Of a stretch of DNA of 64,000 nt, positions 50,855 through 57,372 are shown one piece after another. The stretch is from Octopus vulgaris (lineage: Eukaryota). Location of the stretch: contig OX597819.1 in assembly GCA_951406725.2 (NCBI GenBank), positions 110,050,001 through 110,114,000 on the forward strand, given 5' to 3'. Within the stretch, counting starts at the first letter, position 1, and every line of letters begins with the position of its first letter. Position numbers: made by a program.

Positions 50855-51484
50855 CACATACATGCACATAAACATTCTTTTTAACAGAAGATAGGTAAGT
50901 AAATCTGTAAACTTTTGTTTTCCTTCCTTTTCCCTAACCCCTGGTCCCTTCACCCAACCTTACCCCCACCTCCTTCTCACTTTAATTCTCCCCCCTTCTC
51001 TTTTCACCATTGCATTCCAAATCTTCCGGTCGTAATCTCGGGTCAGCGACAAACGCCGTTAGGTGTTTTGGCCGAGCGGAAGTTGGCGAGCGACCAGAAG
51101 ATGTTGCCAGGAGCTTAGTCTATTATCAACTATTGTTGCATTTGGCCAGGTAGGAGATTGACGTCTGTGGCTGGGCAGTGAGAAGAAGAGGAAGAAGGAG
51201 AAAAAGAAGAAGAAGTAGAAGAAGAAGAAAAAGAAGAAAAAGAAGAAAAAGAAGAAGAAGAAGAGGCTAGATGGGAACGACAATGGAAAAAGACCAAGCA
51301 GGTATGAAAATCCACAAGTTCCCTATGCATCATTGCTCTTTTGTGTGTTTTACTGAGTGTGGGGGTTTTCATTATTTTCTACGCATACCTTTGTGTGTAT
51401 GCTTGTTTGTGCATACGCTCATGTGTGTGTGCGTGTTCATACATACAGATATATATGCAAACATATATATATATATGTCTGTCG

Positions 51485-51520
<36 letters not shown>

Positions 51521-51526
51521 CGACAG

Positions 51527-51557
<31 letters not shown>

Positions 51558-51668
51558 TATTTACACACATACGCATATATATGTGTACTTGTATATGTAT
51601 AAATGTATATCTGAAAATGTTTGTGTGTGTGTGTATATATATATATATAACACACACACACACACACG

Positions 51669-51702
<34 letters not shown>

Positions 51703-54700
51703 CTTATATATATAACACATATATGTATATATACATACATATATATATATAAAACACACGTATATTTATATTTCAATACATATATATATGTGTGTGTGTG
51801 TGTGTGTATACATAGATGTGTGTGTGTGTGTGTTATATATATGTATGTGTATAATGTATATGTAAACACACACATACACACACACATACACACACATACA
51901 TACATACACATACACGCGCACACATAAATACGCATGTAATATACACAACACATCGCAATGTTTTCAGTCATTGGAGAGTTTCATAATTACGCAGCCCCTA
52001 CTTCAAAGCCCTTATCGGGTCAATCGATCCCAATATTTGCAAACTTGTATTTTTCATCGACATTCGAAAGATGAATCTAAACGCTAATTATATCTTTATA
52101 TTGGAAAATTTCAAATACGATCCACGTTGTAGCCTACAGCTTTGCATGTAGAGAGTCTAAATTTTGCATACGTCATATGTCAAGAAAGTTGTTACTTTCA
52201 GCTGCACCAGAAAGATTTAAAAATATTGGATATTCCCATAAAGTACAATAGTTATTACAACAGATCTGATTATTGTAATTTTAGCAGTATTATGGAAAAT
52301 ATTAGCATGATTTCAGGAAAAATTTAACCCATTAACTGCTAAATTTTTTATTCATGTTTTTTGGCTTGGCTATAAAATAATTTATAGTATTTAAATTTTC
52401 TTCATATGTGAATTATTTTGGAAATTATTATAAAATTTTCGAAAAGTCCTAAATGGGGATCGCTGAAAAAAGCATATTTACCCTTTTCTTTTCAATTGCA
52501 ATAAAAAACATTTTAGTTCTTTTTTTTTTTTTTTGAAACTATAGTGTCAAATGCGAATGTGTATGAAATATCAATGAATGATATAGATGGGAAATGCCAT
52601 AAAACGAAATAAAAAAATAAACAACACGTTTTCAAAACAGTCACTATTTTTCTAGTTAAAAAGTTGCAATTTGTGACACAATGTCCTCTAGATTTGACCA
52701 GAGCTAATAATGACAAACTTTAACTACTAAATATTGTTAAACACACCTCTGTAAATGTAATGTACATAAGCAGGGGTGGCTGTGTGGTAAGTAGTTTGCT
52801 TACCAACCACATGGTTTCAGGTTCAGTCCCACTGCGTGGCATCTTAGGCAAGTGTCTTCTACTATAGCCTCGGGCCGACCAAAGCCTTGTGAGTGGATTT
52901 GGTAGACGGAAACTGTATATGTGTGTGTGTGTGTGTTTGTGTGTGTGTGTTTGTCCCCCCAACATCGCTTGACAACCGATGCTGGTGTATTTGCGTCCCC
53001 GTAACAGAGCGGTTCGACAAAAGAGACCGATAGAATAAGTACTAGGCTTACAAAGATCGACCTCAGTGCTTAATTTATGAAAGGCAAAGTCGACCTCGGC
53101 GGAATTTGAACTCAGAACGTAAAGACAGACGAAATGCCGCTAAGCATTTCGCCCGGCGTGCTAACGTTCCTGCCAGCTCGCCGCCTTAGAGTCTTTAAAA
53201 TGGCATCAAAGTGATGCAGAAGATATGTTAAGCAGTTCCTGCCATTACAGAAACCATGGTGGTTGGATATACGAAGACTATTTCTTTCCAAGATGTGAGT
53301 TACTCAGGATCTCTCTAATCTCTCAAATAATTTGTTGATATGAGAGGCAAGTGAGGTCGGTCGGCAATTCACTTCGAGTGATTTGCTTCCCTTTTAGAAA
53401 ACTGGCACAATCAACTGGGATAGAACATTAACAAGAATATAGCCAGTACCGAGTGATTTCCTCTAGAGCAGTGGTTCTCAAACATTTTTATACCTGTACC
53501 CCGTTGATTACTATTTTATTCTGGTGGACCCCATAACCGTTCGATGTTTAAAAACTAGGTTTATAGATATTTCCTTCAAGATTCCTATTTTGTTTTTCAC
53601 ACATCAACTTGTGTAGGTTGGGCTATGTAAAATATCAGAGAAAGAAACCATGTTGTTGTTTTTTTCTGCAATACATACTAATACATACATTTAAAGCAAC
53701 ATTGTTTTGAAGGGCCTCTTGAAGTAATATTGTGGATCCCCATTTTACCATATAGTTGCATGGACCCCCAAAACTCTTATATGGACCTTCAGGGACTCTA
53801 TGGACCGCAGTTAAGAACCACTGCTCTAGAGAATAGCTAGAAGGGATACGAGTTGACGTCGACGCCCTTTTAGCGCAGCAGCAAAACACCACCACCACCA
53901 CCACCACATTCACCATTAACATCGTCGTTCTTCCTTCCTCCTTCACCAGATTTCCTCGTTCTGTCACCAAGGGAGAGACTCAGCTACACCCGTCACCAGC
54001 TTCAGTTACTGAACGGAATATTTGAGAGACTTCGCTACCCAAACAGCATCCAGAAACAGATCATTGCCAGACGAGTCGGCATCAACCGAGAACAGGTGAA
54101 GGTGAGACAGTTTTACCTCAGAGCGTTTGTTATTAGTTTCATTTAGCCCCAGGTCAAGTGTGAGCGAGAAGATCTATAAAGGCAACAGGCTGATGTCCAG
54201 ATATTCACGCTGTTGTTATTATCGTTGTTTAGCTCCAGATAAGGCCTGAGGGAGAAGACCCATTGTATGAAGTTTGTAGGCTGTTGTTATTTAGCCCTAG
54301 GTCACGCTTGGCTGTGAAAATGTGATTTGCTGTATGAAGAATGTAAGTCGTTGGTTAGCTTCGGTTAAGTCTGTATAGAAAGACCGAATGTATGGATCTT
54401 GTAAGCTGTTGTTGTTGTTGTTGTTGTTTTGACCCAGGTCAAGCCTGAGTAAGATGAAGCTACTAAAGGCGGCGAGCTGGCAGAAACGTTAGCACGCCGA
54501 GCGAAATGCTTAGCGGTATTTCGTCTGCCGCCACGTTCGGAGTTCAAATTCCGCCGAGGTCGACTTTACCTTTCATTCTTTCGGGGTCGATTAAATAAGT
54601 ACCAGTTACGCACTGGGGTCGATGTAATCGACTTGATCCCTTTGTCTGTCCTTGTTTGTCCCCTCTATGTTTAGCCCCTTGTGGGTAGTAAAGAAATAAG

Positions 54701-57372
54701 AAACGTTAGCACGCCGGGCGAAATGCTTAGCGGTATTTCGTCTGCGTTACGTTGTGAGTTCAAATTCCGCCGAGGTCGACTTTGCCTTTCATCCTTTCGG
54801 GATCGATAAATTAAGTACCAGTTACGCACTGGGGTCGATGTAATCGACTTAATACCTATGTCTGTCCTTGTTTGTCCCCTCTGTGTTTAGCCCCTTGTGG
54901 GTAATAAAGAAATAGGTATTTCGTCTGCCGTTACGCCTGTCAGTTACGCACTAGGGTCGATATAATCGACTTAACTTGTTTGTCTGTCCTCGTTTGTCCT
55001 CTCTGTGTTTAGCCCCTTGTAGGTAGTAAAGAAATAGGTATTTCATCTGCCGCTACGTTCTGAGTTCAAATTCCGCCGAGGTCGACTTTTCTTTTCATCC
55101 TTTCGGGGTCGATTAAATAAGTACCAGTTACGCACTGGGGTCGATATAATCGACTTAATCCGTTTGTCTGTCCTTGTTTGTCCTCTCTGTGTTTGGGCCC
55201 TTGTGGGTAGTAAAGAATAGGTATTTCGTCTGCCGCTACGTTCTGAGTTCAAATTGCGCCAAGGTCGACTTTGCCTTTCATTCTTTCGGGGTCGATAAAT
55301 TAAGTACCAGTTGCATACTGTTGTCGGTCTAATCGACAGGCCTCCTCCCCCAAAATTTCGGGACTGTGTGCTTAGAGTAGAAAAGAATATTGTTAAGACA
55401 ATGGCCTTGGTTGTTGTTGTTGCTGTGGCGTCTTCCGTCTTTGTTACTGTTGGCTTAGATTTTGTTATTTTTATTTTTCCCTAGTCCAGGTCAGACCTGA
55501 CTGAACAGGTGTAGGACGAAAGGCATTTCAGATTTGACCTCGCATTTTTTCAGACGATATGAATTTAGGACAAGCTTATGTAATGTGTCATTCATTTCTT
55601 AAGACAGTCACATATGGCCTGAAAGCGATTTGGCTGCTGTTTCTAGTGGGTTATGTGACGACATAGCAGCCACCTCGTTGAATCGTAGCTGTGGTTGTTG
55701 TCACGGGCGCGATGAGATAACGGTAAAGTGAAATGGAATAACAAAATTGGATCTCCAAGAGTTTATCTTTTATTTTTCGATATTTGTTAAATCTAAGGCT
55801 GCAAGCTGGCAGAACCGTTGGCATGCCGGGTAAAATGCTTAGCAGCATTTCGTTCGTCTTTACTTTCTGAGTTTAAATTCCTCCGAGGTCGACTTTGCTT
55901 TCATCCTTTCAATGTCAATAATATAGATACTAGTTGAACATTGGGGTCGGTATAATCGACTTACCCTTCCCCCCAAGTTGCTGGCTTTGTGCCAAAATTT
56001 GAAATCTACATTTGTTAACTCTATAGCATGGAACTGTATAAGCCAACAAGGGAACCACTGAGTGAACAAATGACATGCCAGAAATCGTAGCCGAGTCACA
56101 TCTAACCGTTTAAAAAAAAAGGACATATTGGCTATCTGATATTAAAAAAAAAGTCGGATGTTCATTGGAATGTATTTGATGACACAATTGCTGTACCAGT
56201 GGTGACCTTGTATTAAACGACAGAACTGTTTTTCTCTTTTGCGATTTTTCAGGTTTGGTTCCAGAATCGACGCCGGAAAGAAGTTGTCGGGAAACAGAAA
56301 ATGTCTGCCGAACGTAGAGTTGACAAAATCTGTAAAGAATCGCCGACACCTTCTCAAAGTGGTTCAACACATCTTTCCTCTTCATCTCAACCAAAATCAA
56401 TAGAAACTCGGCTCATTCCGACTGTAGTTTTGACAAGCATTATGTACGAACTGGAGCGGTTTAACAACGATGAATGTGGCGGACATAAGACGCACTTTAA
56501 ACAATCTAAGGGAGGAAACAACTCTATGATAACAGACGATAATAAAAAATCAGGCGATTTTGAAATAGCAGACGATAAGACGAGAAAAGAGCTTTTCAAA
56601 ATGAGAGATACAAGGGAAGATCAATATATCAAAACAAATTTACCGAAATTTTCGTGTAACTCACGCAATCAGAATAAAAGAAAGGTTTTACAATCTAATA
56701 AATCTTCCAAAAATAACATTTTCATTAGCGACTACGATATCAGATCACCACCAAATCAAATTACACCAACAGCAATCTTTACACTCAGGGACGATGACCG
56801 CTCAAAGCAACGAAACATGGGCACCAGTGGTTGGATATTTCCACAATTAGAAAGCGGTTTAACAAGTTCTATCGACATACACAGCAATCAGCGAATCAAC
56901 AATTCTTTAACAAATTCACAGAGCTTCGCAAAATTACCTTCTCCAGGTCTCTACGGGAGAGATTATTTGACATCATTTCACCCAGGTACTCCTCTGGATT
57001 CGAACGACATCAGTGTAGTTTCTTTCTCTACTAGCGATTACTGTCCTGATCAGAGGACTATGTTTCCCGTGGTAGATTCTTCTACGTTAAATGAGAGATA
57101 CGAGAATCGACTTATCAAATTCCACCAAGTAAACTTTACTGATATTCGTAGTCCGGCAACATCTCAGCAATCATATGGATCACCACACATTATTCAGAAT
57201 ATAAATGCCTTTCCATTTTCTTATAACATAGATTTTTAACAATCCCAGCTTGTGATGGTACTAAAACACTACTGTACGCTGTTACAATAAAAACACTTTA
57301 AAACCTACTATCCAGTTGTTGTTGCTGCTTCTATTGTCTTCGTTATTGCAATTAATTTGTAATTTTTATTGA

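What the first reader, a model, noticed from the sequence alone, without database searches (positions are those of the whole stretch)
51271..57239. Divergent homeobox gene mixing PRD and ANTP features, missed by the ORF track
Seen: the homeodomain is split by a 2.15-kb intron exactly between codons 46 and 47, and has RxR at 3-5 and YP at 25-26. Established: these are PRD-class hallmarks. Also seen: K46 (ANTP-like VKxWFQN), Q50, N17 in place of the usual E, K31, and R54 in place of the usual A. R54 is a base-contacting position, so DNA specificity may differ. I cannot assign it to a standard bilaterian family (Otx, Arx, Rx, Gsc, Mix and others). Inference: it may belong to a lophotrochozoan-restricted PRD-like clade or be a cephalopod novelty.
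Basis: partly seen in the sequence, partly recalled or inferred. Interest (0 to 1): 0.75.

Follow-up and report, generated by a model that had tools for sequence, protein, structure and literature searches.

The report
Octopus copy of Lopx homeobox gene
This is the octopus copy of Lopx, a homeobox gene family already described as special to molluscs, annelids and their relatives, so the gene is real and unusual-looking but not new.

Summary
The homeobox is real. Codons 1-46 lie at 53964-54101 and codons 47-60 at 56253-56294.

The gene is already annotated. A 389-aa NCBI record, 'homeobox Mix.2-like [Octopus vulgaris]', matches three window segments letter for letter.

It is neither a Mix gene nor a cephalopod novelty. 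It belongs to Lopx ('LOPhotrochozoan only homeobox'; Barton-Owen et al. 2018, PMC6118893).
- That paper's supplement lists the Octopus bimaculoides 'Mix.2-like' protein as Lopx.
- The octopus homeodomain is 43-49/60 identical to molluscan Lopx homeodomains.
- It falls in one clade with Lottia, Mizuhopecten and Biomphalaria Lopx, support 96/84.
- It shares two motifs beyond the homeodomain with them.

The public model joins 51301 to 53950.

Function is untested in any species. I infer a sequence-specific transcription factor. Verdict: already known, low interest.

The parts
51271..51301 (+). Coding part of exon 1: ATG plus 9 codons (MGTTMEKDQA) plus the first base of a split Asp codon. Donor GTATGA at 51302.
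Evidence: equals residues 1-10 of the public O. vulgaris protein P0003, and G|AT gives D11.
51302..53949 (+). Intron 1 (2648 bp, phase 1), full of TA/CA microsatellites and one SINE-like repeat copy.
   Evidence: No homologue covers those residues. The cephalopod orthologues have short N-termini.
53950..54101 (+). Exon 2: last two bases of the split codon, FLVL, then homeodomain residues 1-46 (53964-54101; helices 1 and 2 and the start of helix 3).
   Evidence: Pfam Homeodomain 31.3 bits. Equals P0003 residues 12-61.
54102..56252 (+). Intron 2 (2151 bp, GT..AG, phase 0) between homeodomain codons 46 and 47. Largely tandem and inverted copies of a SINE-like repeat.
   Evidence: The same break point is seen across the family.
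56253..57239 (+). Exon 3 coding part: homeodomain residues 47-60 (56253-56294), a 314-residue tail and the stop TAA (57237-57239).
   Evidence: 100% identical to P0003 residues 62-389.
56415..56462 (+). Motif A (IPTVVLTSIMYELERF), a post-homeodomain motif shared with named Lopx proteins. Predicted as a confident helix.
   Evidence: AlphaFold2 helix 118-129; the two 10-residue blocks 111-130 have mean pLDDT 84 and 97.
56733..56786 (+). Motif B (YDIRSPPNQITPTAIFTL). The PPN core is conserved in at least 90% of 37 aligned family members.
57286..57291 (+). AATAAA, a possible polyadenylation signal 47 nt after the stop (inferred only).
   Evidence: Read. No transcript data.

Best explanation
The locus is the Octopus (by 100% identity, O. 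vulgaris) orthologue of Lopx. Lopx is a homeobox family restricted to lophotrochozoans/spiralians and not assigned to any homeobox class.

The gene has three coding exons:
- a 31-nt first coding exon;
- an exon that starts just upstream of the homeobox;
- a last exon carrying homeodomain residues 47-60 and a long tail.

The homeobox is split by a phase-0 intron between codons 46 and 47, as in PRD-LIKE genes and in the rest of the family.

Shown here: the exons, the intact frame, the canonical three-helix homeodomain model, family membership, and family-wide conservation of the 'odd' residues.

Inferred, not shown: the protein is a nuclear, sequence-specific transcription factor.
- It would bind a TAAT-type core through helix 3 (Q50, N51, R53) and the R3/R5 N-terminal arm.
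- The invariant R54-K55 would add contacts that set the family's own flanking-base preference.
- Cofactors would be recruited through the conserved helical motif A and the Pro-rich motif B, within an otherwise disordered tail.
For: Gene model:
- P0003, 'homeobox Mix.2-like [Octopus vulgaris]', equals the three window segments exactly.

Family link through the literature:
- Sheet 6 of the PMC6118893 supplement lists as Lopx: Lottia Lotgi1|169764, Mizuhopecten XP_021359506.1 'OTX1-like'/'ESX1', Biomphalaria 'proboscipedia-like', and Octopus bimaculoides XP_014782262.1 'Mix.2-like'.
- My hits carry matching names: P0017 (LOTGIDRAFT_169764), P0019 and P0020.
- The published Lg_Lopx and La_Lopx homeodomains are identical to those of P0017 and P0104.

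Sequence comparisons:
- The octopus homeodomain is 43-49/60 identical to 25 non-cephalopod molluscan Lopx homeodomains.
- Quick tree of 172 homeodomains: all 53 pattern-defined Lopx-like rows plus 4 others form one clade, SH-aLRT 96.
- Careful tree of 86 rows: 37 of 38 Lopx-like rows plus P0107 form one clade, 96/84.
- The tail alone, without any homeodomain residue, finds Lopx tails first.
- Motifs A and B are shared.
- In 41 aligned members Y25, P26, Q30, W48, F49, Q50, N51, R53 and R54 are invariant; N27, K31, K46 and K55 are at least 90% conserved.

Intron position:
- In 18 of 18 half-gene database 'proteins', homeodomain similarity stops after K46.
- In 12 of 14 tail-only models a Q (the CAG acceptor) sits directly before residue 47.

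Fold:
- AlphaFold2 gives helices 25-37, 43-53 and 57-81, with mean pLDDT 93-97 over residues 21-70.
- The model superposes on CRX, CDX and ALX4 homeodomains, TM-score 0.79-0.89 normalised by target.
Against: - No function, binding site or expression pattern of any Lopx gene was found in the searched literature. The mechanism rests on general homeodomain knowledge.
- Cephalopod homeodomains are the most divergent in the molluscan set: mean 45.6/60 for octopus, against 53.3/60 among 300 non-cephalopod pairs.
- Placement of the cephalopods inside the clade is unresolved. The unnamed cephalopod P0006 did not join the octopods with support (48/0).
- The outgroups in my trees are unnamed nearest hits, not a curated reference set.
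- The 'Lopx-like' label was defined by a sequence pattern I chose.
- The careful search on 172 rows never finished, so only its quick tree was used. The bootstrap of the 86-row tree had not fully settled.
- One pattern-defined row (P0083) fell just outside the clade.
- The O. bimaculoides Lopx sequence itself was not seen. The link is by accession and name only.
- The cephalopod proteins did not reappear in the listing.
- No transcript evidence from this species was seen.
Confidence: 0.9

Rival explanations
1. A cephalopod-specific novel homeobox gene with no orthologues outside cephalopods.
For: The cephalopod homeodomains share six substitutions against a consensus held by at least 90% of other molluscs (positions 1, 20, 33, 36, 47, 56). 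The region before the homeodomain is very short. Word-based searches with the single exons found only cephalopod proteins.
Against: The profile search found 164 proteins at E<=1e-10, and the best single-homeodomain hits carry the same signature. The clade with named Lopx has 96/84 support. Motifs A and B and the intron position are shared. The paper lists an Octopus member.
Confidence: 0.02
2. A true member of the Mix family or another canonical PRD family (Otx/ceh-37, NOBOX, Unc-4), as the automatic names in public records say.
For: NCBI names: 'Mix.2-like' for Octopus and Argonauta; 'OTX1-like', 'ceh-37', 'NOBOX-like' and 'unc-4 homolog' for relatives. The nearest solved structures include PRD-class domains.
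Against: The automatic names disagree with each other across orthologues. Paps et al. give K50 as diagnostic of Gsc and Mix (passage), and this domain has Q50. Barton-Owen et al. state that Lopx genes were 'mistaken' for Otx/ceh-37 by annotation pipelines and form their own strongly supported clade. Solved-structure matches mix PRD with ANTP domains (CDX1/2, En2, Scr, DLX) at similar scores.
Confidence: 0.03
3. The reader's four-exon model (51271-51301, 53251-53294, 53874-54101, 56253-57239) is the true transcript, or an alternative one.
For: The frame is kept and the splice signals are acceptable (AG|, |GTGAGT, TTTTAG|). There is a start codon in good context inside the 44-bp exon. Other molluscan Lopx have 15-153 residues before the homeodomain and a proline run just before it.
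Against: The public model and two other cephalopod proteins go from an M-x-K-x-x-x-D start almost straight into the homeodomain. No database protein covers the extra residues. The proline run in the window comes from a (CAC)n microsatellite. 53930-53949 looks like the pyrimidine tract of the 53950 acceptor.
Confidence: 0.08
4. A decaying or non-functional gene copy.
For: Fast evolution relative to other molluscs. The introns are filled with repeats.
Against: The 389-codon frame is intact with canonical splice sites. All invariant family residues are kept. Motifs A and B are kept between Octopus, Argonauta and a more distant cephalopod.
Confidence: 0.03

Closest known systems
Lopx family (Barton-Owen, Szabo, Somorjai & Ferrier 2018, Genome Biol Evol; PMC6118893)
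   Same: - Homeodomain signature, including RERLSYT at positions 3-9, YPN at 25-27, QK at 30-31, VK at 45-46 and WFQNRRRK at 48-55.
- Intron at 46/47.
- The post-homeodomain motifs.
- Spiralian-only distribution.
- The O. bimaculoides orthologue is listed as Lopx under the same automatic name.
   Different: Cephalopod copies are the most divergent molluscan members: H11 in octopods, then F20, I33, V47 and E56 in all three. They have only 11-15 residues before the homeodomain, and a weaker match to the C-terminal N-P-Y/F motif.
PRD-LIKE class homeobox genes (e.g. Otx/CRX, ALX4, Prrx, LEUTX)
   Same: - Phase-0 intron between codons 46 and 47.
- A short first coding exon with a phase-1 donor and a second exon starting just before the homeobox, as described for LEUTX (PMC6258689).
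- R3/R5, Y25-P26 and Q50.
- Best fold and sequence matches include CRX, ALX4 and DUX4.
   Different: - K46, R54, N17 and N27.
- No OAR, octapeptide or paired domain detected (Pfam finds only Homeodomain/Homeobox_KN).
- The published tree keeps Lopx apart from all PRD families except Hopx.
Mix/Mix.2 (the name in the public record)
   Same: Generic homeodomain similarity only.
   Different: Q50 instead of the K50 given as diagnostic for Mix. Orthologues in other species receive unrelated automatic names.
ANTP-class homeodomains (CDX, En, Hox)
   Same: The V-K-x-W-F-Q-N-R-R pattern with K46. The family profile scores CDX1 and En2 only slightly below ALX4.
   Different: Intron position, YPN at 25-27 and R54. 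No hexapeptide or other ANTP-type motif was seen.

Membership tests
Lopx | Homeodomain matching the published Lopx homeodomains | tested here: met
   43-49/60 identity to 25 molluscan members, including Lottia (44), Mizuhopecten (44) and Biomphalaria (45). The published Lg_Lopx and La_Lopx rows are identical to the homeodomains of P0017 and P0104. All columns invariant in 41 members are kept.
Lopx | Groups with named Lopx genes in a homeodomain tree | tested here: met
   Clade of 57 rows, SH-aLRT 96, in the quick tree of 172 rows. Clade of 38 rows, 96/84, in the careful tree of 86 rows. Caveat: the outgroups are unnamed nearest hits. The tree with the paper's own reference alignment was left out, because sequences from a supplement may not be typed in.
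Lopx | Conserved motif C-terminal of the homeodomain, 'unique to Lopx proteins' (paper, Fig. 6b) | tested here: met
   Motif A and motif B are shared with Lottia, Mizuhopecten and Biomphalaria Lopx. The E-L of motif A and the P-P-N of motif B are at least 90% conserved in 37 rows. The figure is not held, so I cannot say which of the two the authors meant.
Lopx | Restricted to lophotrochozoans/spiralians | tested here: met
   Of 74 hits, 32 carry an organism name: 28 molluscs, 3 rotifers, 1 nemertean. None is an ecdysozoan or deuterostome. The other 42 are unnamed.
Lopx | Orthology to the listed O. bimaculoides Lopx (XP_014782262.1) | not testable with these tools
   Only the accession and the name 'Mix.2-like' were seen.
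PRD-LIKE class | Phase-0 intron between homeodomain codons 46 and 47 | tested here: met
   Family-wide. Called canonical for the class in PMC6258689.
PRD-LIKE class | Nests among PRD-class families in phylogeny | tested here: inconclusive
   The nearest solved structures mix PRD and ANTP. The published tree keeps Lopx separate, and the paper's table lists it as unclassified.
Mix | K at homeodomain position 50 (as stated in PMC5322547) | tested here: not met
   Q50. Passage.

The most novel reading that the evidence does not exclude
Lopx is older and wider than its name says, and the cephalopod copy is a fast-evolving, N-terminally shortened form of it.
- Proteins with the same homeodomain signature, a break at 46/47 and a recognisable motif A occur in rotifers (Brachionus, Seison) and a nemertean. 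The family would then date to the base of Spiralia.
- Its invariant R54-K55 would give it a DNA preference unlike any canonical PRD-LIKE or ANTP homeodomain.
- Motif A would be a fourth helix that works together with the homeodomain.
Probability: 0.35. Interest if true: 0.35.

Novelty: already known. Interest (0 to 1): 0.15.

Why it matters
For the scan, this is a true positive of the method: a split homeobox that an ORF list misses. It is not a discovery.

The practical value is a correction of names. The public label 'Mix.2-like' is misleading and should read Lopx.

Lopx itself remains an almost unstudied spiralian-only transcription factor. In the searched library, only two papers that use the word mean this gene. 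A binding-site or expression study in any species, octopus included, would therefore be new biology.

Tried and rejected
- Exon-by-exon word searches found only cephalopod proteins. Taken alone, they would have wrongly suggested a cephalopod-only gene.
- The ESM Atlas look-up of a family member gave only generic homeodomain clusters, all below 0.9. It was not used.
Names came instead.
- The careful tree on 172 rows did not finish in two runs. I cut the set to 86 rows, dropping rows with end branches of 1.0 or more, two mispredicted models (P0177, P0193), 26 of the 74 remaining outgroup rows (taken in list order) and 15 of the 53 Lopx-like rows.
- Building the tree with the named reference homeodomains printed in the paper's supplement was left out, because those letters are not stored sequences.
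- ARAGORN found no tRNA in 50000-58000.
- Bürglin & Affolter 2016 (PMC4901127) had nothing on intron positions or residue 54.
- Model coordinates are not readable, so whether motif A packs on the homeodomain could not be checked.
No search was made with a spliced model of my own. Full-length comparisons used public records returned by the searches.
- Not checked: metagenome contigs and viral contigs (closed). Genome contigs holds only bacteria and archaea and was not used.
- Figures are not held. Of the supplements to PMC6118893, only one file is held as text.

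
Full report
WHAT IS THERE

On the + strand, the frame open from 53874 ends with homeodomain (HD) residues 1-46 at 53964-54101, and GTGAGA follows at 54102. After the acceptor GCGATTTTTCAG, the frame at 56253 starts with V47-W-F-Q-N-R-R-R-K and runs 328 codons to TAA at 57237-57239. The intron is 2151 bp, in phase 0, between HD codons 46 and 47.

The first homeobox exon alone passes Pfam's Homeodomain cut-off (31.3 against 22.9 bits). The second exon has no Pfam match of its own. 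A default ORF list shows no + strand ORF over the first homeobox exon and starts the last exon's ORF after the homeodomain. That explains how an ORF track could miss the gene.

THE GENE IS ALREADY ANNOTATED

I searched exon by exon and did not join the exons.
- The last exon found a 389-aa NCBI/UniRef record, 'homeobox Mix.2-like [Octopus vulgaris]' (P0003), at 100% identity. It also found an Argonauta hians 'Mix.2-like' protein (40%) and two unnamed proteins.
- The first homeobox exon found three of the same proteins and nothing else.
- P0003 equals three window segments letter for letter: 51271-51300, a codon split as G|AT across 51301/53950-53951, 53952-54101, and 56253-57236.

The junctions 51301/53251 and 53294/53874 are not supported:
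- The public model uses the acceptor at 53950, behind a strong pyrimidine tract.
- The Argonauta record and an unnamed cephalopod protein also have only 11-15 residues before the homeodomain.
- No database protein covers the extra residues.

No RNA-seq could be consulted.

WHAT FAMILY IT IS

A profile of the cephalopod proteins was run over 1.84 billion representatives. It gave 4665 hits at E<=1e-3, 164 at E<=1e-10 and 16 at E<=1e-30.

The best single-homeodomain hits share a distinctive signature with the octopus domain: RERLSYT at 3-9, L-L-N at 15-17, YPN at 25-27, Q-K at 30-31, V-K at 45-46 and WFQNRRRK at 48-55.

A second search, with 41 aligned members, returned 74 proteins at E<=1e-12. 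Of these, 32 carry organism names: 28 molluscs, 3 rotifers and 1 nemertean. Their automatic names contradict each other (NOBOX-like, OTX1-like, ocelliless-like, proboscipedia, ceh-37, unc-4 homolog). The cephalopod proteins themselves did not reappear in that listing, which scored only the 8000 candidates sharing most words.

The name 'ceh-37' led to Barton-Owen et al. 2018 (PMC6118893). I read passages, all of section 13, and passages of supplementary file 1.
[quoted passage not shown] The paper's table lists Lopx as unclassified.
- Sheet 6 of the supplement lists the members: Lottia Lotgi1|169764, Mizuhopecten XP_021359506.1 ('OTX1-like'/'ESX1'), Biomphalaria XP_013064818.1 ('proboscipedia-like'), Crassostrea CGI_10016179, and Octopus bimaculoides XP_014782262.1, 'homeobox protein Mix.2-like'.
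- My hits P0017 (LOTGIDRAFT_169764) and P0019 match the first two by identifier or name, and P0020 probably matches the third.
- The homeodomain rows Lg_Lopx and La_Lopx printed in the supplement are identical to the homeodomains of P0017 and P0104.
- Paps et al. 2015 (PMC5322547, passages) had left the oyster member unclassified as Cgi_Hbx_2.

TESTS OF MEMBERSHIP DONE HERE

Identity. The octopus homeodomain shares 43-49 of 60 residues with 25 non-cephalopod molluscan members.

Trees.
- A quick maximum-likelihood tree of 172 homeodomains puts all 53 pattern-defined Lopx-like rows plus 4 others in one clade, SH-aLRT 96. The clade holds the three cephalopods and the named Lottia, Mizuhopecten and Biomphalaria genes.
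- The careful search on that set did not finish.
- A careful tree on 86 rows gives a clade of 37 of 38 Lopx-like rows plus P0107 at 96/84. One row (P0083) falls just outside it.
- The outgroups are the nearest unnamed hits, not a curated set. The label rests on a pattern I chose, and the bootstrap had not fully settled.

Beyond the homeodomain.
- The octopus tail, used alone, finds Lopx tails ahead of every other protein in the local set.
- Two motifs are shared across the family. Motif A lies at window 56415-56462 and motif B at 56733-56786. The E-L of A and the P-P-N of B are conserved in at least 90% of 37 rows.
- The paper's figure is not held, so I cannot say which motif it shows.

THE 'ODD' FEATURES BELONG TO THE FAMILY

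In 41 aligned members Y25, P26, Q30, W48, F49, Q50, N51, R53 and R54 are invariant. N27, K31, K46 and K55 are at least 90% conserved.

The intron position is also shared.
- 18 database 'proteins' are first halves in which homeodomain similarity stops after K46 (18 of 18).
- 14 are second halves, and in 12 of them a Q, the CAG acceptor read through, sits directly before residue 47.
- One model (P0193) reads a short intron through in frame.

[quoted passage not shown] For LEUTX it describes the same three-exon layout as found here. PMC2938728 (passage) reports the same position in Nematostella hbn, otp and rx.

CLASS

Class assignment stays open. Solved structures nearest to the first exon are mostly PRD-class. 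Those nearest to the family profile mix PRD with ANTP: DUX4, ALX4, then CDX1, Aristaless, PRRX2, En2, Scr.

'Mix' fails the one diagnostic I could test. Paps et al. give K50 for Mix, and this domain has Q50.

HOW IT LIKELY WORKS

AlphaFold2, run on the family alignment with the public octopus record as first row, gives:
- a confident canonical homeodomain, with helices 25-37, 43-53 and 57-81 and mean pLDDT 93-97 over residues 21-70;
- one more confident helix at 118-129, which is motif A;
- a tail otherwise below pLDDT 50.

The domain superposes on CRX, CDX2 and ALX4 at about 1-2 Å.

From established homeodomain knowledge I infer binding to a TAAT-type core by Q50, N51 and R53 and by the R3/R5 arm. 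I also infer extra contacts from the invariant R54-K55. I recall, from no call here, that Arg54 contacts bases in yeast MATalpha2. Cofactor binding through motifs A and B is likewise inferred.

None of this has been tested. In the searched library the word Lopx occurs in 13 papers (11 listed), and only two of them mean this gene: the 2018 paper and a Biomphalaria straminea genome paper that merely counts it. 'Mix.2-like' occurs in none.

CEPHALOPOD PECULIARITIES

- Non-cephalopod molluscan homeodomains average 53.3/60 identity over 300 pairs. Octopus against them averages 45.6/60.
- At six positions all three cephalopods differ from a residue held by at least 90% of the other molluscs.
- The region before the homeodomain is 11-15 residues, against 15-153 in the others.

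These point to a fast-evolving orthologue, not a new gene.

VERDICT

The gene is the octopus Lopx, which is already published and annotated, though misnamed. Interest is low.

Noticed in passing
related proteins P0045, P0170 (Brachionus), P0052 (Seison), P0055 (Lineus): Lopx-like proteins occur in rotifers and a nemertean. They have the same homeodomain signature and sit inside the 96/84 clade; the rotifer-type fragments P0109, P0150 and P0154 break after K46, and motif A is recognisable. The 2018 paper sampled only Lophotrochozoa in the strict sense, so the family may be Spiralia-wide.
   Followed up: partly
database proteins P0044-P0068, P0093, P0109, P0141, P0150, P0154, P0176-P0186, P0193, P0194: At least 32 public 'proteins' are half-gene artefacts of Lopx. 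They are cut or read through at the 46/47 intron, and several tail-only models are annotated as uncharacterised proteins without a homeodomain.
   Followed up: yes
window 31353-31850 (-) and 37439-37867 (+): Mariner-type transposase remnants: the HTH_48 domain of Mos1 transposase (37.2 bits) and Transposase_1 (84.2 bits).
   Followed up: partly
window 1770-1865 (+): Partial 5S rRNA match, 60.5 bits against a gathering score of 38, model positions 14-109 of 120. It may be a pseudogene or a 5S-derived repeat.
   Followed up: no
window 53077-53190, 54466-55400, 55792-55963: One SINE-like repeat family fills both introns. There are inverted copies at 86-92% complementarity and tandem units of 216, 183 and 122 nt inside the homeobox-splitting intron.
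   Followed up: partly
window 50177-50366 and 51181-51264: (ATA)63 and (AGA)28 microsatellites lie just upstream of the start codon. The second ends 7 nt before the ATG.
   Followed up: no
database proteins P0007, P0021, P0028: Giant predicted proteins hold 3-8 identical homeodomains at a fixed spacing. They are probably tandem gene arrays read as one protein.
   Followed up: no
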